Source of the DNA: a virus | Length of the DNA: 11,947 nt | UHGV virus genome: UHGV-1581813 | Strand: one strand, 5' to 3' | Part shown: positions 2,320 to 11,157 of the stretch, piece after piece | Position numbering within the stretch: position 1 is the stretch's first letter | How the letters are laid out: the number at the start of each line of letters is the position of its first letter | The notes under the pieces: model-generated | The model's input: the letters and a program-made list of their open reading frames with translations, nothing else | What the model was told of the DNA's origin: nothing | Database searches by the model: none | Translations under genes and position numbers: made by a program

Positions 2320-2588
2320 TATGGTTCGCTCCAGTAATTCTCAATTGCAGCAGCCATTCTCTGCATCCACTCAGCCAGCTTTAACGCGGCTTCTCTTTCA
2401 GAACCACATTTAGGGAAATCCTTCATTTCCATGCTGGCCTTATATGTTCTGAATGCCAGGTCTCCGGTAATAACCAGCTCCTGATCAAGCACCGAGCGTT
2501 TATTCCGGTGTTGAACGTAATAGACAGATTCAGTCCGCATTTCTTCTCTGTCTTTTTTGAAGGAAATAAGCTCAGAGAAATCACTCAT
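2319..2588 (-). CDS. Hypothetical 89-aa protein inserted between ninF and ninG
   Basis: [33 protein letters not shown].... Its ATG overlaps the ninF stop (ATGAGTGA) and its stop overlaps the ninG ATG (TAATG), so it is tightly coupled within the operon. I do not recognise the family. Confidence 0.6.
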
Positions 2589-2757
2589 CGTCTTCTTCCT
2601 CGTACATTGAGCTATTCGGATCGCTCATCAGTTCTGCGCAGCAGTGCTCACATACGTGAACTTCCAGAACATGCAGCTTCTGACCGCAGTTAGCGCACGT
2701 TAAAGCCAGCTCGACGCTTTCTTTCTGGTATTGAATGGATTGGGATGGGCTAAGCAT
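2581..2757 (-). CDS. ninF: NinF-like small zinc-binding protein (58 aa)
   Basis: Not in the ORF track (<60 aa). Translation is [58 protein letters not shown], matching lambda NinF as I recall. Its ATG overlaps the stop of the upstream NinX-like gene (TAATG). Confidence 0.75.
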   Translation of the reverse strand: MLSPSQSIQYQKESVELALTCANCGQKLHVLEVHVCEHCCAELMSDPNSSMYEEEDDE

Positions 2758-3122
2758 TATTGGATTCTCTGCATCATGAGAAAGACAATCATGGCGGCGC
2801 GGAGGGGATTTTCATGTATAGCTCGCTTAGATTTACAGTAGGCCACACCGCGTGCACCCCACTCGTCTTCATCGAGATTGATAATGCTAATCCTGTATTT
2901 TTCAATAATCGGCCATGCGTCTGCTGGGTTTGCGCATGGGTTAAAGGATCCGCGCTCAACTTCTACTTCAACTGCGTCTCCGTTTACAATGTCTCCCTCA
3001 AATGAGACAAACACCATATCGCCATTCTCACCTTCTTTGTAATCCGGTGATCCGTTATGAATGGCTTCGAATACCGCCACGTTAATCTCAAAATCACTTA
3101 ACTGTGAATAATCCATTGTCAT
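2757..3122 (-). CDS. NinX-like (DUF2591-type) nin-region protein
   Basis: The track ORF is 2757..3158. I place the start at the ATG at 3122 ([20 protein letters not shown]...) because it makes an ATGA overlap with the ninE stop; a second ATG at 3116 has a GAGGAA ribosome-binding site 6 nt upstream. Family assignment is from memory only. Confidence 0.55.
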
Positions 3123-3295
3123 TTCCTCGCACGATGTCTTAGCCACCGGATATCCCACAGGTGAGCCGTGTAGTTGAAGGTTTTTACGTCAGATTCTTTT
3201 GGGATTGGCTTGCGTTTATTTCTGGAGCGTTTCGTTGGAAGGTGTTTGCAGTTTTCACAGGTTATGTCGGTGATACTTCGTCGCTGTCTCGCCAT
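3119..3295 (-). CDS. ninE: NinE-like protein (58 aa)
   Basis: Not in the ORF track. Translation is [58 protein letters not shown], with a GGAGG ribosome-binding site 4 nt upstream. It matches the NinE family as I recall. Confidence 0.7.
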
Positions 3296-3435
3296 ACGTC
3301 CTCCTTTTCCTGCGGTAGTGGTAAAACTCCTGTTGGTGTTCTTTCACACCGGAGACACCATCGATTCCAGTAAGGTTGCCCGGGTCGAAAGCGATCGCCT
3401 TCCTTTCGCTCTCCACATCGATAACAGTGCTTCAT
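3262..3435 (-). CDS. Small zinc-ribbon protein (CxxC...CxxC), possibly NinD-like
   Basis: The ATG at 3435 makes an ATGA overlap with the methyltransferase stop. Product is [34 protein letters not shown].... Its 3' end overlaps the ninE start by 34 nt in another frame, which lowers confidence. Confidence 0.45.
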
Positions 3436-5428: not shown

Positions 5429-5461
5429 CAAATAAAAAGGCCTGCGATTACCAGCAGGCCT
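5429..5461 (-). terminator. Intrinsic terminator between replication genes and the nin-side cluster (tR2-like)
   Basis: Minus strand: AGGCCTGC-(8-nt loop)-GCAGGCCT, a perfect 8-bp stem, followed by TTTTTATTT, directly after the helicase stop. Confidence 0.6.
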
Positions 5462-7478: not shown

Positions 7479-8339
7479 TCACCTGTCGAAAAACACGTAG
7501 CCAGTTTTCGATACGGTGATTGCGGATGATGGTTTAGATTGTGGTTGAATGGTTTCTGGCTTTTCGTCGTTCCAGCGCTGACCGTTCAGGTAGCTCGATG
7601 GTAACAACCTGTCGAATCCGAACTGCTTACCATTCCTGCATGCGATGTCTTCTGCCAGCATCGTGGCAAACTCGCTTGCCGTACCCTTGGTAGTTTTACG
7701 CCATTCCCTGAACTGTGTTCTGAATGCCGTAGCTGCGTTTTTCTTCCCGGCTTTCCGCATGCCTGCACACCAGAATATTTCCTCGAATGCCTTGTCGGTT
7801 TCTTCGTGACGGTCAGGTGATTTTTCACACTCCGTCCGAACACTTTCGGACATAGTGTTTTTATTATTTCTTTTTTCTTTTGTAATAGTTTCTTTTGTGT
7901 GTCCCTGTTTTGGTGACAGCGCTGTCACCGTTTTGGTGACACTTTTTGTCACCAATGCAGTGACATTATCACCAGAGTAGTGACACCCTTCGATTTTCCA
8001 TTCTTCGATGTTCTTGTTAGGCCCGATTTGCTGGCCTTCGCGAAGGATAACCTTCATCGCGATAAGCTCATTCTTGGCCTTGTTTACCTTCTGTCTTGGC
8101 AGCCTGGTAATTTGAGCTAACTGACTATCAGAGATGCGATCCATCTTTTTACCGTAGCCGTATGTTTTACGGCATATGGCGTGGGCAACCTTGCTCTGAT
8201 TTTTCGTTAAATCTGCGCCGATAAGCTCTTCATACAGGGCATTTGCAAGACGGGTATAACCATCTTCAACTTCTGCCACACGACGCTCCACAGGCCGTTG
8301 TGAAGGCCTTAAATGTGTTACGGTTGCAAGATTAATCAT
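7479..8339 (-). CDS. Replication initiator, lambda O-like N-terminal domain
   Basis: 286-aa ORF. Its N-terminal ~110 aa (…[14 protein letters not shown]…ADLTK…[25 protein letters not shown]…GPNKNIEEW) are clearly homologous to lambda O as I recall. The gene contains the iteron array, as O contains ori-lambda. Confidence 0.85.
7858..7990. repeat. Candidate origin of replication inside the O-like gene: four GTGACA-containing iterons plus an adjacent AT-rich tract
   Basis: GTGACA occurs at 7913, 7936, 7960 and 7980 (20-24 bp spacing), each within an inverted-repeat unit such as GGTGACAGCGCTGTCACC. An AT-rich block lies at 7858-7900. The order iterons-then-AT-rich in the direction of O transcription matches ori-lambda architecture. 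Confidence 0.6.
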
Positions 8340-8478
8340 GACCTTTCTCCTTCTGCATCAGCTTCACTTTTTCCAACTCAGCCCGGAATCGACCAGGCTG
8401 CTTGAAGCTGGACAGGAAGCGATCACGTAGTATGTGTTTGTGAATTTTGTCCTGGTAAGGACTGAGTTGTTTTGTCAT
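8332..8478 (-). CDS. Unannotated small basic protein (48 aa) between cII and the O-like gene
   Basis: Not in the ORF track. ACAGGAGTAATT precedes the ATG at 8478. Product is [48 protein letters not shown]. Its stop overlaps the O-like start. The start context resembles the lambda O start context as I recall. Confidence 0.45.
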
Positions 8479-8487
8479 AATTACTCC

Positions 8488-8566
8488 TGTGGATTGATCC
8501 AGTAATGACCTCAGAATTCCATCTGGATTTGTTCAGAACGCTCGGTTGCCGCCGGGCGTTTTTTAT
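8488..8566 (+). ncRNA. oop: OOP-like antisense RNA (pO promoter to the 'to' terminator), antisense to the cII 3' end
   Basis: Plus strand has an extended -10 TGTCATAAT at 8473-8481. Downstream is a hairpin GCTCGG-UUGCCG-CCGGGC (8540-8557) followed by GTTTTTTATT. The resulting ~78-nt transcript overlaps the last ~55 nt of cII on the opposite strand, as in lambda. Confidence 0.55.
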
Positions 8567-8804
8567 TGGTGAGAATCGAAGCAACTTGTCGTGCCAATCG
8601 AGCCATGTCGTCGTCAACGACACCCCATTCAAGAACAGCAAGCAGCATTGAGAACTTTGGAATCCAATCCCTCTTCCACCTGCTGATCTGCGACTTATCA
8701 ACTCCCACAGCTTCCGCTGTCTTCTCAGTTCCAAGCATTGCGATTTTGTTAAGCAACGCACTCTCGATTCTTAGAGCCTCGTTGCGTTTGTTTGCACGAA
8801 CCAT
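8511..8804 (-). CDS. cII: Transcriptional activator CII
   Basis: From the ATG at 8804 the product is [51 protein letters not shown]..., 97 aa, matching lambda CII. The classic TAAGGAAATACTTACAT-ATG start context is present. The track ORF (start 8891) is an upstream in-frame extension across nutR. Confidence 0.9.
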
Positions 8805-8862
8805 ATGTAAGTATTTCCTTAACAAATAAGAAGTTATGCGCATCAACTTATGCGCGTTGTAT

Positions 8863-8905
8863 TCCCGCATTTCGGCGGGAATGAGGACCATGACTGTTAA
8901 AGAGC
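8863..8905 (-). promoter_or_regulatory. nutR (boxA plus boxB hairpin)
   Basis: On the minus strand, just after the cro stop: boxA-like TGCTCTTTAACA, then 14 nt, then hairpin TCCCGC-CGAAAU-GCGGGA. The same boxA and an identical hairpin recur downstream of pL on the plus strand. Confidence 0.6.
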
Positions 8906-8912
8906 AATTTGC

Positions 8913-9098
8913 TTATGCCGCTTTGCGGTAAGCGCTTTCTTGATACTTCAGGGCGCCAGCTGTAACGACTTCCAGTCGATAGGCGTCTTTCTCTGGGATG
9001 ACTTCCTTCCACTGAGAGACTGCTGCGTCGCTAATGCCTAACGCTTTAGCTACAGCACGCTGGGTTCCGAAGTGGTCGATAACATCTTTCTTGTACAT
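8913..9098 (-). CDS. cro: Cro repressor (P22-type)
   Basis: 61-aa ORF MYKKDVIDHFGTQRAVAKALGISDAAVSQWKEVIPEKDAYRLEVVTAGALKYQ... with a helix-turn-helix, divergent from the repressor gene. It resembles P22 Cro as I recall. Confidence 0.85.
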   Translation of the reverse strand: MYKKDVIDHFGTQRAVAKALGISDAAVSQWKEVIPEKDAYRLEVVTAGALKYQESAYRKAA

Positions 9099-9112
9099 AG
9101 ACTCGCTCCGAA

Positions 9113-9178
9113 ATTAAAGAACACTTAAATTATCCACTAAAGGAATCTTAAGTCAAGTTTATTTAAGATGTCTTAACT
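9113..9178. promoter_or_regulatory. Right operator region (three 18-bp operators, OR1-OR3) with divergent pR and pRM
   Basis: Three imperfectly palindromic 18-mers: ATTAAAGAACACTTAAAT (9113-9130), ACTAAAGGAATCTTAAGT (9136-9153) and ATTTAAGATGTCTTAACT (9161-9178), with centres 23 and 25 bp apart. The last ends 1 nt before the repressor ATG, consistent with a leaderless pRM transcript. Confidence 0.65.
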
Positions 9179-9829
9179 ATGAAAACTCAATTGATGGGAG
9201 AGCGCATTCGCGCTCGGAGAAAAGAACTCAAGATCAGGCAGGCCGCACTTGGAAAGATGGTCGGCGTGTCTAATGTTGCCATATCTCAGTGGGAACGCTC
9301 TGAGACAGAGCCAAATGGAGAGAATCTTCTCGCCCTGGCTAATGCGTTGAAGTGTTCCCCTGACTATCTGATGAAAGGAGAGGAAAGTCTTTCAAACATT
9401 GCCTATCACAGTAGGCATGATCCAAGAGGGTCATACCCTCTGATTAGCTGGGTGAGCGCAGGATGCTGGATGGAAGCTGTAGAACCATATCATAAGCGTG
9501 CAATAGATAACTGGTACGATACAACCGTAGACTGTTCAGAAGATTCGTTTTGGTTGGACGTGAAGGGAGACTCAATGACGGCTCCGGCCGGTCTCAGTAT
9601 CCCTGAAGGAATGATAATACTCGTCGATCCTGAAGTAGAGCCGCGTAACGGGAAACTGGTAGTTGCAAAGCTCGAAGGAGAAAACGAGGCAACTTTCAAG
9701 AAGTTAGTTATTGATGCAGGCAGGAAGTTTCTAAAACCACTTAACCCACAATATCCGATGATCGAGATCAACGGGAACTGCAAAATCATCGGCGTAGTTG
9801 TCGATGCAAAACTAGCAAACCTTCCATAA
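9179..9829 (+). CDS. c2: Prophage repressor, P22 c2-type (HTH plus LexA-like S24 autopeptidase domain)
   Basis: 216-aa ORF MKTQLMGERIRARRKELKIRQAALGKMVGVSNVAISQWERSETEPNGENLLALANAL... with a C-terminal S24-type domain (…WLDVKGDSM…). It closely resembles the P22 C2 repressor as I recall. Confidence 0.9.
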   Translation: MKTQLMGERIRARRKELKIRQAALGKMVGVSNVAISQWERSETEPNGENLLALANALKCSPDYLMKGEESLSNIAYHSRHDPRGSYPLISWVSAGCWMEAVEPYHKRAIDNWYDTTVDCSEDSFWLDVKGDSMTAPAGLSIPEGMIILVDPEVEPRNGKLVVAKLEGENEATFKKLVIDAGRKFLKPLNPQYPMIEINGNCKIIGVVVDAKLANLP

Positions 9830-9830
9830 G

Positions 9831-9855
9831 GGGGCATTCGCCCCTTTTTTTATTT
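9831..9855 (+). terminator. Intrinsic terminator after the repressor gene
   Basis: GGGGC-ATTC-GCCCC hairpin followed by TTTTTTTATTT, starting 2 nt after the repressor stop. Confidence 0.6.
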
Positions 9856-9890
9856 CCTTTAAAAATCAAAGCCAAACTTAAGTTACGAAA

Positions 9891-9948
9891 GAAAATTTAA
9901 GTTTTCTTCAAAAATACTCTTGACCATTAATTAAAGAGATCTTAAATT
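9891..9948 (+). promoter_or_regulatory. pL promoter with overlapping left operator(s)
   Basis: -35 TTGACC (9920-9925), 17-bp spacer, -10 TAAATT (9943-9948). Operator-like ATTAAAGAGATCTTAAAT (9930-9947) overlaps the spacer and -10, and a second palindromic site GAAAATTTAAGTTTTC lies at 9891-9906. Confidence 0.55.
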
Positions 9949-9993
9949 TAAGCCATCAGCAGGACGCTGGTAGCCAAACGGAACAGATTGGCA

Positions 9994-10035
9994 GGCTCTT
10001 TAACATTGATGGAATTGTCCCGCCGAAATGCGGGA
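9994..10035 (+). promoter_or_regulatory. nutL (boxA plus boxB hairpin)
   Basis: boxA-like GGCTCTTTAACA (9994-10005), then 12 nt, then hairpin TCCCGC-CGAAAU-GCGGGA (10018-10035), identical to the hairpin at nutR. Confidence 0.6.
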
Positions 10036-10177
10036 ACCAAAGAGTAGTTGGCTTTGGGATTGGATGAATGCGCAGGCTGATGCGCGCAGGAGAGCTTCGG
10101 GAGAACAAGGTGCCTGTAAATAAGCCGGAGTTCAGCACCGGCCATCCAATCGCCAAAGTCAATCATCGGAGGTCAAC

Positions 10178-10483
10178 ATGGCAGTAGTCATTACATATCT
10201 GGCTGACGATAACGCCAGAAATCGCCGCAGAGCACGCAGACAGGCTCAACGTGAACAGGCAATGCAAGAGCAGCGACTGGCGCGAAAAATTGCGCTAAAG
10301 CTCTCTGGTTGCGTCAGAGCAGATAAAGCAGCATCACTCGGAAGCCTTCGCTGCAAGAAGGCAGAAGAAGTCGAGCGTAAACAGAACCGTATTTACTACC
10401 GCAAGCCACGCAGTGAAATGGGTGTGACTTGCTCAGGCCGCCAGAAACAACGCGGAAAATCAATTCCAGCTTATTACGATTGA
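10178..10483 (+). CDS. N: N-like transcription antiterminator (arginine-rich motif at N-terminus)
   Basis: 101-aa ORF with GGAGG 5 nt upstream. The N-terminus carries an arginine-rich motif (DDNARNRRRARRQAQREQ). The C-terminus (…RIYYRKPRSEMGVTCSGRQKQRGKSIP…) resembles the lambda N C-terminus as I recall, but the N-terminal motif differs from lambda. Confidence 0.8.
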   Translation: MAVVITYLADDNARNRRRARRQAQREQAMQEQRLARKIALKLSGCVRADKAASLGSLRCKKAEEVERKQNRIYYRKPRSEMGVTCSGRQKQRGKSIPAYYD

Positions 10484-10491
10484 GGTGAGCC

Positions 10492-10629
10492 ATGCTCAAG
10501 AAAGTCAAACGCCGACTTTACAAAGAAGGTAGATATTCATGCCATTTGCCAAAATGCGACACAGCAAAATGGAGTGTCGATGATTGGTGTAACTGGATAG
10601 ATAGATACGGAACTTGGTGGGATAAATAA
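10492..10629 (+). CDS. Unannotated small Cys/His/Trp-rich protein (45 aa), hypothetical
   Basis: Not in the ORF track. The ATG at 10492 lies 8 nt after the N stop and is preceded by TGAGGTGAG. Product is MLKKVKRRLYKEGRYSCHLPKCDTAKWSVDDWCNWIDRYGTWWDK. Confidence 0.45.
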   Translation: MLKKVKRRLYKEGRYSCHLPKCDTAKWSVDDWCNWIDRYGTWWDK

Positions 10630-10683
10630 CAGGTAACTTAAGCGGATTTATTTTCGCAGCAAACCACTTATTTGAGGTGAGAT

Positions 10684-10947
10684 ATGGACGAGAAAATTAA
10701 ATCATTGAAGCCAGGAATTGTTATCAGAGACATAAGTGGTTATTACGATACAGAGACATATGATATTTTATATGTGCATGCAGATGGAAAATGTCAGTAT
10801 TCGAACGACATTTTTAATAATAAAGGCGATGCCGAAATTGCTGCCACCACAGTTAATAAAGAGCTCGTAGCTAACGAGTCGTGGGATTATTTTATGCCAT
10901 CATCCACTTCTATGAACTGGAAAGTGGTTTTGTACATTCCATCATAA
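10684..10947 (+). CDS. Hypothetical protein (87 aa), AT-rich accessory gene downstream of N
   Basis: ORF MDEKIKSLKPGIVIRDISGYYDTETYDILYVHADGKCQYSNDIFNNKGD..., preceded by the same TGAGGTGAG ribosome-binding motif as the 45-aa ORF. AT-rich codon usage; an intrinsic terminator follows. Confidence 0.55.
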   Translation: MDEKIKSLKPGIVIRDISGYYDTETYDILYVHADGKCQYSNDIFNNKGDAEIAATTVNKELVANESWDYFMPSSTSMNWKVVLYIPS

Positions 10948-11012: not shown

Positions 11013-11131
11013 GGCATAAACAACAGAATAAACACTGCACTGTGTATTCATTCCAACGAGTGAATACACTGAGCAATGTCGCTCGTAACTAAACAGGAGC
11101 CGACTTGTTCTGATTATTGGAAATCTTCTTT

Positions 11132-11157
11132 GCCCTCCAGTGTGAGGGCGATTTTTT
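11132..11157 (+). terminator. Intrinsic terminator upstream of ea10
   Basis: GCCCTC-CAGTGT-GAGGGC hairpin followed by GATTTTTTAT, 20 nt before the ea10 start. Confidence 0.55.

What the first reader, a model, noticed from the sequence alone, without database searches (positions are those of the whole stretch)
8863..10035. Matched nutL and nutR with identical boxB hairpins, paired with a divergent N arginine-rich motif
The same boxA (GCTCTTTAACA) and an identical 18-nt hairpin (TCCCGC-CGAAAU-GCGGGA) occur once downstream of pL (plus strand) and once downstream of cro (minus strand), exactly where nut sites should be. The hairpin has a 6-nt loop and differs from the lambda and P22 boxB sequences I recall, and the N protein's arginine-rich motif is also distinct. 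Together these suggest a separate N/boxB specificity class.
Basis: partly seen in the sequence, partly recalled or inferred. Interest (0 to 1): 0.45.

Follow-up and report, generated by a model that had tools for sequence, protein, structure and literature searches.

The report
HK620-type N/nut antitermination sites
These are the two RNA landing sites (nutL, nutR) and the matching N protein that let a P22-like E. coli phage read through terminators; the pair differs from the textbook lambda, P22 and phage 21 versions, but it is the same one annotated in phage HK620 in 2001 and is common in E. coli prophages.

Summary
An identical 18-nt hairpin (UCCCGC-CGAAAU-GCGGGA) follows an identical boxA (GCUCUUUAACA) once downstream of pL/upstream of N (+ strand) and once downstream of cro (- strand). 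The boxB and the N arginine-rich motif (ARM) differ from those of lambda, P22 and phage 21, and comparative evidence supports a matched ARM/boxB pair. Against phage 21, boxA, cro, cI, pL and N residues 33-90 are conserved, while both boxBs and the ARM are replaced together. The ARM/boxB link held in 80 viral loci, and 149 of 151 N genes with this ARM have the hairpin upstream; both exceptions are explained. The ARM sits on at least 12 different N backbones in Escherichia, Cronobacter, Pantoea and Erwinia phages, always with the CGAAAU loop, and the stem covaries. It is not new, however. nutL, nutR and the ARM match the 'putative N-utilization' sites and N of coliphage HK620 (AF335538) apart from one spacer base and one residue. 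They recur in CUS-3, IME10, N7, HK630, HK140 and mEp213, and in 455-508 of 5426 complete E. coli genomes. I found no biochemical characterisation of this pair. The loop reads as a GAAA tetraloop flanked by C/U, closest to P22 nutR. Ordinary lambdoid biology; low interest.

The parts
8511..8807 (-). cII gene (lambda-type), first gene downstream of nutR/tR1 in the pR operon
   Evidence: Pfam Phage_CII E=1.8e-48. The 5' end plus tR1 region is 100% identical to HK620 over 8802-8905.
8838..8855 (-). Hairpin GCGCAU-AAGUUG-AUGCGC between nutR and cII (tR1 region)
   Evidence: Read from the sequence. The HK620 record annotates tR1 a few bases 5' of this hairpin, directly after nutR. The same stem with another loop is present in P22, and a different stem at the same place in phage 21.
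   Evidence: identical to the HK620 nutR annotation; stem covariation.
8895..8905 (-). nutR boxA GCUCUUUAACA
   Evidence: The same boxA core is in phage 21, HK620 and P22 nutL. It lies in the 13-nt overlap (8893-8905) between HK620-like and phage-21-like sequence.
8913..9098 (-). cro (P22/phage 21 type)
   Evidence: Pfam P22_Cro E=8e-28; within the 87% identity block shared with phage 21, 8893-10013.
9129..9156 (-). pR promoter-like site (TTGACT-16-GATAAT)
   Evidence: a consensus match in the expected cI-cro intergenic position.
9179..9829 (+). cI repressor (HTH + S24 peptidase), followed by terminator tIMM at 9828-9847
9920..9948 (+). pL promoter-like site (TTGACC-17-TAAATT)
   Evidence: homologous to the phage 21 pL/OL region.
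9995..10005 (+). nutL boxA GCUCUUUAACA
   Evidence: It lies in the leader segment shared by HK620 and phage 21 (9948-10013).
10018..10035 (+). nutL boxB hairpin UCCCGC-CGAAAU-GCGGGA
   Evidence: identical to the HK620 nutL annotation. Similarity to phage 21 stops at 10013, just before it.
10037..10057 (+). Conserved hairpin CCAAAG-N9-CUUUGG just 3' of boxB (counterpart of the lambda boxC region)
   Evidence: Conserved in HK620, Pantoea PA-1 and Erwinia EhrS_49. Lambda nutL shows CAAAG-N7-CUUUG at the corresponding place. The boxC name rests on my own knowledge of lambda.
10178..10273 (+). N codons 1-32: HK620-type RNA-binding module MAVVITYLADDNARNRRRARRQAQREQAMQEQ (ARM core residues 12-22)
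   Evidence: The block is HK620-like, and phage 21 similarity resumes at 10276.
10274..10483 (+). N codons 33-101: phage-21-type middle region and lambda-like C-terminal RNAP-binding tail
   Evidence: 96.5% nt identity to phage 21 N over 10276-10447. Residues 62-98 match lambda N in PDB 6GOV, E=6e-7. The whole protein matches PHROG 271 'anti-termination protein N-like', E=5e-36.
5438..5461 (-). Strong intrinsic-terminator-like site in the pR operon, downstream of the primase/helicase gene; a likely target of N-modified RNAP
   Evidence: 8-bp stem, 6 GC pairs, U tract. Its role as an N target is inferred.
11130..11151 (+). Intrinsic-terminator-like site in the pL operon downstream of N; a likely target of N-modified RNAP
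   Evidence: Its role as an N target is inferred.

Best explanation
This is the early antitermination system of a P22-like temperate coliphage, of the type first sequenced in phage HK620. Transcripts from pL and pR each carry a nut site, made of boxA followed 12-14 nt later by the boxB hairpin. By analogy with lambda, the host NusB/NusE pair binds boxA. The N-terminal arginine-rich helix of N (about residues 9-27, core NARNRRRARRQ) binds the boxB loop. The phage-21-type middle of N and its lambda-like C-terminal tail engage NusA and RNA polymerase, so the polymerase reads through tR1 and downstream terminators and expresses cII, the replication genes, the nin genes and Q on one side and the pL operon on the other. 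ARM and boxB are a co-inherited recognition pair. The immunity cassette (cro-cI-operators) can be exchanged by recombination at the universally conserved boxA/leader sequences without separating N's ARM from its two boxBs. The boxB loop C-GAAA-U is most likely a canonical GNRA tetraloop flanked by a C/U non-Watson-Crick pair. Shown here: sequence identity, position, gene context, mosaic junctions, ARM-boxB co-occurrence and stem covariation. Inferred: RNA binding, Nus dependence, the loop fold, and specificity relative to lambda and P22.
For: (1) Position and identity of the sites.
(2) N homology: 64% amino-acid identity to phage 21 N, a lambda N C-terminal match in 6GOV, and PHROG 271.
(3) Identity with the HK620 annotated nutL, nutR and N ARM.
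(4) Co-replacement. Phage 21 similarity covers 8893-10013 and 10276-10447 and excludes both boxBs and N codons 1-32. HK620 similarity covers exactly the complementary parts, 8802-8905 and 9948-10369.
(5) Co-occurrence. In 80 IMG/VR loci, every N with this ARM has the CGAAAU boxB at every nut site found, and every phi21-ARM N has CUAACC-type loops. 149 of 151 N genes with this ARM have boxA plus the hairpin within 750 nt upstream. One exception has it 930 nt upstream, and the other is a rearranged prophage.
(6) The ARM module is conserved on at least 12 otherwise dissimilar N backbones and beside several different cI/cro types, in Escherichia, Cronobacter, Pantoea and Erwinia phages.
(7) Among 17 distinct hairpins the loop and the closing C-G pair are invariant, 5 of 8 stem pairs change on both sides (15 cells), and 1 of 500 shuffles reaches the covariation score. 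Seven cells are G-U/U-G wobbles that pair only on the transcribed strand, which points to RNA rather than DNA.
(8) Loop architecture. The solved phi21 boxB hexaloop CUAACC is a 4-nt GNRA-like fold flanked by a C-C pair (PMC12550061), and P22 nutR is CCGC-C-GACAA-C-GCGG. The present CCGC-C-GAAA-U-GCGG is the same frame without the looped-out C.
Against: There is no functional data for this N or these sites, either here or in the held literature. Pfam N_peptide scores below its cut-off (18.9 against 27.9 bits), but so does phage 21 N itself. Fold z-scores are weak. The hairpins used for the covariation count were pre-selected for at least 4 of 5 inner pairs, which inflates the percentage paired, and many loci are near-identical prophages, so the co-occurrence reflects few independent events. 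The GNRA-plus-C/U reading of the loop is an inference, and ViennaRNA simply draws a hexaloop.
Confidence: 0.9

Rival explanations
1. This is not a separate specificity class. The HK620-type pair is a cross-reactive variant within the GNRA-recognising lambda/P22 group, so P22 N (and perhaps lambda N) can use this boxB and this N can use theirs.
For: The loop core GAAA is a GNRA sequence, like lambda GAAAA/GAAGA and P22 GACAA. The stem and loop frame is nearly that of P22 nutR (CCGC-C-GA(C)AA-C/U-GCGG), and the window aligns with P22 at 78.5% across the pR side, 8315-10011, including the nutR region. The ARM core aligns with P22 (NAKTRRHERRR vs NARNRRRARRQ) and with lambda (TRRRERR vs NRRRARR). 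From my own memory of Cocozaki et al. 2008 (J Bacteriol; not held), P22 N tolerates many GNRA-like loops and overlaps with lambda.
Against: According to PMC12550061, P22 residues His7 and Arg11 contact the looped-out C. Assuming the peptide numbering starts at the Asn, these align with Arg and Gln here, and the looped-out C is absent. Lambda's Trp18, which stacks on the loop (my own knowledge), has no counterpart. The loop and closing pair are invariant across 17 distinct hairpins from four host genera, which suggests sequence-specific reading. P22 N reportedly prefers U:A or A:U next to the loop (my memory), whereas here it is C/U on a C-G pair.
Confidence: 0.25
2. The two inverted repeats act at the DNA level (protein-binding palindromes) or as terminators, rather than as N-binding RNA hairpins.
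For: They are perfect inverted repeats in regulatory intergenic DNA flanking the immunity region.
Against: No U tract follows either hairpin. Each lies at the canonical spacing 3' of boxA on the transcribed strand. Stem variants include seven G-U wobble cells, which would be A-C mismatches on the other strand and meaningless in duplex DNA. The asymmetric loop CGAAAU is invariant and always in the transcript orientation. The sites co-vary with the N ARM.
Confidence: 0.02

Closest known systems
Coliphage HK620 N, nutL and nutR (GenBank AF335538; Clark et al. 2001 J Mol Biol, paper not held)
   Same: boxA, spacer and boxB of nutR are identical. nutL is identical except for one spacer base. N residues 1-56 are identical except T2A. 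Over 8802-8905 the DNA is 100% identical. The same type is in CUS-3, IME10, N7, Gally, JEP4, HK630, HK140, mEp213, mEpX2 and some Stx phages.
   Different: The immunity cassette between the two boxA sequences is imm21/P22-like here (87% to phage 21), whereas HK620 has its own cI/cro. The N C-terminus here is phage-21/lambda-like (...GVTCSGRQKQRGKSIPAYYD), whereas HK620 N ends with the H-19B/P22-like ...CLPNVAIYAAGYRKSKQLTAR. The HK620 sites are annotated as 'putative', and I found no experimental test.
Phage 21 N-boxB (NMR structure PDB 1NYB, Cilley & Williamson 2003)
   Same: The boxA core, the pL leader, cro/cI (87%) and N residues 33-90 (96.5% nt) are shared. Both have a hexaloop boxB with the architecture pyrimidine + 4-nt GNRA-like turn + pyrimidine: C-UAAC-C against C-GAAA-U.
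   Different: The loop sequence, the stem sequence and the ARM (GTAKSRYKARRAELIAERR against DDNARNRRRARRQAQREQ) are all replaced.
P22 gp24-boxB (PDB 1A4T, Cai et al. 1998), especially P22 nutR
   Same: The N-terminus is MTV(V)ITY... and the ARM core is NA[KR]xRRxxRR. The nutR boxB frame is CCGC-C-GA.AA-Y-GCGG, with a pyrimidine-pyrimidine mismatch closing the loop. The surrounding pR-side region is homologous at 78.5%.
   Different: P22 has a pentaloop GACAA with a looped-out C, whereas here the loop is GAAA without it. The P22 residues reported to touch that C (His7, Arg11) are Arg and Gln here. P22 has a 3-residue insertion before the ARM.
Lambda N-boxB (Legault et al. 1998; lambda N-TAC, PDB 6GOV)
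   Same: Overall mechanism and layout are the same. The ARM core is RRRxRR, the loop has a GNRA-type G-A-A-A core, and the C-terminal RNAP-binding tail is similar (E=6e-7 to 6GOV chain N).
   Different: Lambda has a pentaloop GAAAA/GAAGA on a U-A closing pair and the boxA variant CGCUCUUA. Lambda's Trp18 has no counterpart here, and the middle region is unrelated.

Membership tests
Lambdoid N/nut early antitermination system | One nut site in each early transcript: downstream of pL before N, and downstream of cro before cII, on the transcribed strand | tested here: met
   nutL 9995-10035 (+) lies between pL (9920-9948) and N (10178). nutR 8905-8863 (-) lies between cro (ends 8913) and cII (starts 8807).
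Lambdoid N/nut early antitermination system | boxA element matching the (C)GCUCUUUA(ACA) consensus, 5' of boxB | tested here: met
   The boxA core is identical to the annotated boxA of phage 21 and HK620 and to P22 nutL.
Lambdoid N/nut early antitermination system | boxB: a short stem-loop a few nucleotides 3' of boxA, maintained as RNA structure | tested here: met
   Fold. Covariation: 5 of 8 pairs with double changes, wobble pairs only on the sense strand, invariant loop. Caveat: the hairpins were pre-filtered for pairing.
Lambdoid N/nut early antitermination system | Small basic N protein with an N-terminal arginine-rich motif, encoded as the first gene of the pL operon and homologous to known N proteins | tested here: met
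   64% identity to phage 21 N, PHROG 271 at E=5e-36, and a lambda N (6GOV) C-terminal match at E=6e-7. Pfam N_peptide is below its cut-off (18.9 against 27.9 bits), as it also is for phage 21 N.
Lambdoid N/nut early antitermination system | N binds boxB RNA and, with NusA/B/E/G, makes RNAP terminator-resistant | not testable with these tools
   This needs reporter or binding assays. Candidate terminators downstream in both operons are present.
HK620-type N/boxB pair | boxB loop CGAAAU on a C-G closing pair at both nut sites, together with the N-terminal module MT(V/I)V(I/M)T(Y/I)LA(D/S)DNA(R/K)NRRRA(R/K)R | tested here: met
   The window differs from HK620 by one residue (T2A) and one nutL spacer base.
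Phage 21 N/boxB specificity class | boxB hexaloop CUAACC and ARM GTAKSRYKARRAELIAERR | tested here: not met
   both are replaced, although the flanking sequence is phage-21-like.
P22 gp24/boxB specificity class | boxB pentaloop GACAA with a looped-out C, and ARM GNAKTRRHERRRKLAIER | tested here: not met
   the loop lacks the C, and the ARM differs at 10 of 17 aligned positions, including the positions aligned to His7 and Arg11. Functional cross-reactivity was not tested.
Lambda N/boxB specificity class | boxB pentaloop GAAAA/GAAGA on a U-A pair, and ARM MDAQTRRRERRAEKQAQW with Trp18 | tested here: not met

The most novel reading that the evidence does not exclude
The HK620-type ARM and its C-GAAA-U boxB form a fourth, functionally orthogonal N-boxB recognition pair. 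An arginine-rich helix would read a canonical GNRA tetraloop closed by a C/U mismatch, with no looped-out base and no Trp or His stacking residue. The pair would not cross-talk with lambda, P22 or phi21 N. It has never been characterised biochemically, despite being present in about 8-9% of complete E. coli genomes.
Probability: 0.45. Interest if true: 0.35.

Novelty: already known. Interest (0 to 1): 0.2.

Why it matters
The biological interest is small. The element is a textbook lambdoid N/nut system, and this exact version has been in GenBank, annotated, since 2001. Three points have some value. First, it is a clean natural example of how specificity modules travel. The RNA-binding ARM and both boxBs stay together while the immunity cassette between the two boxA sequences, and the NusA/RNAP-binding part of N, are exchanged independently. 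The junctions fall on the conserved boxA/leader sequences, which are the 'boundary sequences' marked in the CUS-3 record. Second, lambda N-boxB is a standard RNA-tethering tool, and a very common, uncharacterised pair built on a plain GAAA tetraloop could serve as an additional orthogonal tether if it proves specific. Third, there is an annotation gap: most NCBI E. coli records call this N 'hypothetical protein'.

Tried and rejected
- A tblastn search of the 41-aa N-terminus against the phage collection found nothing, probably because of the low-complexity filter on the Arg-rich query. A blastn search with the ARM-coding DNA replaced it and worked.
- An Rfam scan of 8400-10700 returned only two sub-threshold chance hits and no nut/boxB family.
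- Pfam N_peptide is below its cut-off for this N, and equally for phage 21 N, so it is uninformative.
- Four papers could not be read: Cocozaki 2008, Cilley & Williamson 2003, Casjens & Hendrix 2015 and the HK620 paper (the PMC ids were my guesses for some of them).
- A full-text search for the peptide and RNA strings gave only irrelevant siRNA hits.
- The pattern scan for boxA plus CCGAAAUG also pulled in chance matches with stems of 1-3 bp, and one 5-bp case (L106) with no N-like ORF downstream. These were excluded from the covariation set.
- I considered a terminator or a DNA palindrome and rejected both (no U tract, sense-strand wobble pairs).
- I did not run structure prediction, because AlphaFold2 on a 30-residue ARM without RNA would not bear on specificity.
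Full report
**Observation.** The 18-mer TCCCGCCGAAATGCGGGA occurs exactly twice in the window, at 10018-10035 on the + strand and 8863-8880 on the - strand. None is expected by chance. GCTCTTTAACA also occurs exactly twice, at 9995-10005 (+) and 8895-8905 (-), in each case 13-14 nt 5' of the hairpin on the same strand. Both fold into a hairpin with a 6-nt loop, with a 6-bp stem at the + strand site and an 8-bp stem at the - strand site. The folding z-scores of the surrounding 56-58 nt are unremarkable, so the case rests on identity, position and comparison rather than on energy.

**Context.** The window is a P22-like temperate coliphage early region. It is about 99% identical over 8800-10500 to phages IME10, N7, Gally, CUS-3 and JEP4. 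The layout is as follows:
- cI: 9179-9829 (+), HTH plus S24 peptidase, followed by a terminator at 9828-9847
- cro: 8913-9098 (-), P22_Cro family
- cII: 8511-8807 (-)
- pR-like promoter: 9156-9129 (-)
- pL-like promoter: 9920-9948 (+)
- N: 10178-10483 (+)

The + strand site is therefore nutL, lying between pL and N. The - strand site is nutR, lying between cro and cII. Terminator-like sites lie downstream in both operons, for example at 5461-5438 (-) and 11130-11151 (+).

**Comparison with the three characterised systems, read from database records.**
- Lambda: nutL is GCCCU-GAAGA-AGGGC and nutR is GCCCU-GAAAA-AGGGC.
- P22: nutL is GCGCU-GACAA-AGCGC and nutR is ACCGC-C-GACAA-C-GCGGU.
- Phage 21: nutL is UCUCAAC-CUAACC-GUUGAGA and nutR is UCACCU-CUAACC-GGGUGA.
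- This window: the boxB UCCCGC-CGAAAU-GCGGGA is none of these.

The N-terminal motif DDNARNRRRARRQAQREQ differs from lambda DAQTRRRERRAEKQAQW, P22 GNAKTRRHERRRKLAIER and phi21 GTAKSRYKARRAELIAER.

**A matched pair: evidence from the mosaic structure.** The most informative comparison is with phage 21.
- Similarity to phage 21 (87%) runs from 8893 to 10013. That span goes from boxA-R through cro, cI, the operators and pL to boxA-L, and it stops a few bases short of each boxB.
- Similarity to phage 21 resumes at 10276-10447 (96.5%), which is N codons 33-90.
- The excluded pieces are nutR boxB with the tR1/cII start (8802-8905, 100% identical to HK620) and nutL boxB with the leader and N codons 1-32 (within 9948-10369). 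These are HK620-like.

Relative to phage 21, both boxBs and the RNA-binding end of N have therefore been replaced together, while the Nus/RNAP-binding part of N and the boxA elements have not. The junctions fall on boxA-R (overlap 8893-8905) and on the pL leader/boxA-L (overlap 9948-10013). The CUS-3 record marks the cI-N interval as a 'boundary sequence'. Recombination at these conserved sequences can swap the immunity cassette without separating N from its two targets.

**A matched pair: evidence from co-occurrence.**
- In 80 IMG/VR loci found with N, all loci with this ARM carry the CGAAAU hairpin at every nut site detected. All 10 loci with the phi21 ARM carry CUAACC-type loops.
- Across all loci fetched, 149 of 151 N genes with this ARM have boxA plus the hairpin within 750 nt upstream. 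One exception (L084) has it 930 nt upstream behind an inserted ORF. The other (L045) is a rearranged prophage in which unrelated DNA abuts the N ribosome-binding site.
- The module MT(V/I)V(I/M)T(Y/I)LA(D/S)DNA(R/K)NRRRA(R/K)R occurs on at least 12 N backbones that are otherwise dissimilar. Some have lambda-like ...GRQKxKGKSIPLI tails and others have P22/H-19B-like ...CLPxVAxYxAGxRK... tails. It sits next to several unrelated cI/cro types, in Escherichia and Cronobacter prophages and in Pantoea phage PA-1 and Erwinia phage vB_EhrS_49.
- All of these have the CGAAAU loop.
- Many of the E. coli loci are near-identical, so the number of independent events is much smaller than the number of loci.

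**RNA structure.** Among 17 distinct hairpins, the six loop bases and the closing C-G pair never vary. Five of the eight stem pairs show changes on both sides (15 cells), for example CUCCAC/GUGGAG and CUCCGC/GCGGAG. Only 1 of 500 shuffles reaches the covariation score, and slid registers collapse. Seven cells are U-G or G-U wobbles, which pair only on the transcribed strand, so the structure is in the RNA. One caveat is that I kept only hairpins with at least 4 of 5 inner pairs, which biases the percentage paired. A subgroup of nutR sites (Pantoea/Erwinia type) has a mismatch at the third pair (C-A or C-C).

**Not new.** A blastn search with the ARM-coding DNA identified HK620 N at 99% identity. 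The HK620 GenBank record (AF335538) annotates 'nutL; putative N-utilization leftward' at 7753-7794 and 'nutR; putative N-utilization rightward' at 9423-9468. These features span boxA through boxB and read GGCTCTTTAACATTGATGGGATTGTCCCGCCGAAATGCGGGA and CGCTCTTTAACAGTCATGGTCCTCATTCCCGCCGAAATGCGGGAAT. They match the window except for one spacer base in nutL and the base just 5' of boxA-R.

HK620 N residues 1-56 equal the window's N except for T2A. The same ARM is in HK630, HK140, mEp213, mEpX2, CUS-3, IME10, N7, Gally, JEP4, ECP1 and several Stx phages. The nutL segment is found in 455-508 of 5426 complete E. coli genomes.

The general idea that a divergent N-terminus of an N homologue implies a new boxB specificity is also already in the literature, for example for phage epsilon34 (PMC2629481). 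For phage L and P22, identical boxBs are taken to mean equal specificity.

I found no paper in the held library that characterises the HK620-type pair, or that even prints its sequences. No PDB entry contains this ARM.

**What the loop probably is (inference).** In the solved phi21 complex, the hexaloop CUAACC is a four-base GNRA-like turn (UAAC) flanked by a non-canonical C-C pair. In the P22 complex, the pentaloop GACAA is a GNRA fold with the C looped out and touching His7 and Arg11 of the peptide (PMC12550061). P22 nutR reads CCGC-C-GACAA-C-GCGG. The boxB here reads CCGC-C-GAAA-U-GCGG, which is the same frame without the looped-out C and with C-C replaced by C-U.

In the protein alignment, the positions corresponding to P22 His7 and Arg11 (numbering from the Asn) are Arg and Gln here. 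The simplest reading is a canonical GAAA tetraloop stacked on a C/U pair, read by an ARM helix closest to that of P22. This makes it uncertain whether the specificity is truly separate from P22 or lambda. That rival gets about 0.25.

**Mechanism.** By homology, NusB/NusE bind boxA and the ARM helix of N binds boxB. N's middle region is phage-21-type and its C-terminal tail is lambda-like (residues 62-98 match lambda N in the 6GOV antitermination complex, E=6e-7). These parts engage NusA and RNA polymerase. The modified polymerase then reads through tR1 and later terminators. The region functions of lambda N come from established knowledge, not from tests done here.

**Verdict.** The feature is real, correctly located and correctly identified as nutL, nutR and N. 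It is distinct from the three textbook specificity types, and the ARM-boxB pairing is well supported by comparison. It is nevertheless an already annotated, very common type (HK620-type), so its novelty is nil and its interest is low. The only open question is the biochemical specificity and loop fold of this uncharacterised pair.

Noticed in passing
window 10037-10057 (+): A second conserved hairpin, CCAAAG-N9-CUUUGG, lies immediately 3' of nutL boxB. It is also present in HK620, Pantoea PA-1 and Erwinia EhrS_49. Lambda nutL has CAAAG-N7-CUUUG at the corresponding place, which is the boxC region of lambda as I recall it.
   Followed up: partly
window 8838-8855 (-): Hairpin GCGCAU-AAGUUG-AUGCGC lies between nutR and the cII start. 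P22 has the same stem with another loop, and phage 21 has a different stem at the same position. HK620 annotates tR1 just 5' of it, directly after nutR.
   Followed up: partly
window 10178-10483 (+): N is a three-part mosaic. Residues 1-32 are HK620-type, residues 33-90 are phage-21-type, and the extreme tail ...TCSGRQKQRGKSIPAYYD is lambda-like and differs from the ...TCVGRQKMKLGSKPLI tail of CUS-3 and most relatives.
   Followed up: partly
L001 (CUS-3) 2531-3051; L084 2069-3000: The distance between nutL and N varies. CUS-3 has about 300 bp more between nutL and the N start than the window, and a Cronobacter prophage has a 46-aa ORF inserted there.
   Followed up: no
L076, - strand nut site: One viral contig has a nutR whose boxA-boxB spacer and 5' stem flank are those of nutL (GCTCTTTAACATTGATGGGATTGTCCCGC...). 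This suggests recombination or conversion between the two nut sites.
   Followed up: no
L211 about 826-780 (-), L212 about 464-420 (-), and L096, L112, L199: The nutR boxB of Pantoea/Erwinia-type phages has a consistent mismatch at the third stem pair from the loop (C-A or C-C), while their nutL boxB is fully paired.
   Followed up: no
L045 2400-2500: A prophage in which N with this ARM has lost nutL. Unrelated coding-like DNA is fused just upstream of the N ribosome-binding site, so this is probably a decayed or rearranged prophage.
   Followed up: partly
window 10492-10629 (+) and 10684-10947 (+): Two small ORFs lie directly after N. One is a 45-aa Cys/Trp-rich protein (phrog_1871) and the other is an 87-aa protein (phrog_33140). 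Both have unknown function, and they sit where CUS-3 and phage 21 carry ral.
   Followed up: no
window 8535-8562 (+): A strong terminator-like hairpin lies on the strand opposite to cII, overlapping its 3' end. This is the position of the oop antisense RNA terminator in lambda and P22.
   Followed up: no
protein clusters P0001-P0034: NCBI records name this N 'hypothetical protein' in most E. coli genomes, whereas N proteins with the phage 21 ARM are named 'regulator'. Pfam N_peptide misses both at its cut-off. This is an annotation gap for a very common prophage gene.
   Followed up: no
L003 (mEp235) 2752-3398: Phage mEp235 encodes a phi21-ARM N immediately followed by a Nun-like termination factor gene.
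   Followed up: no
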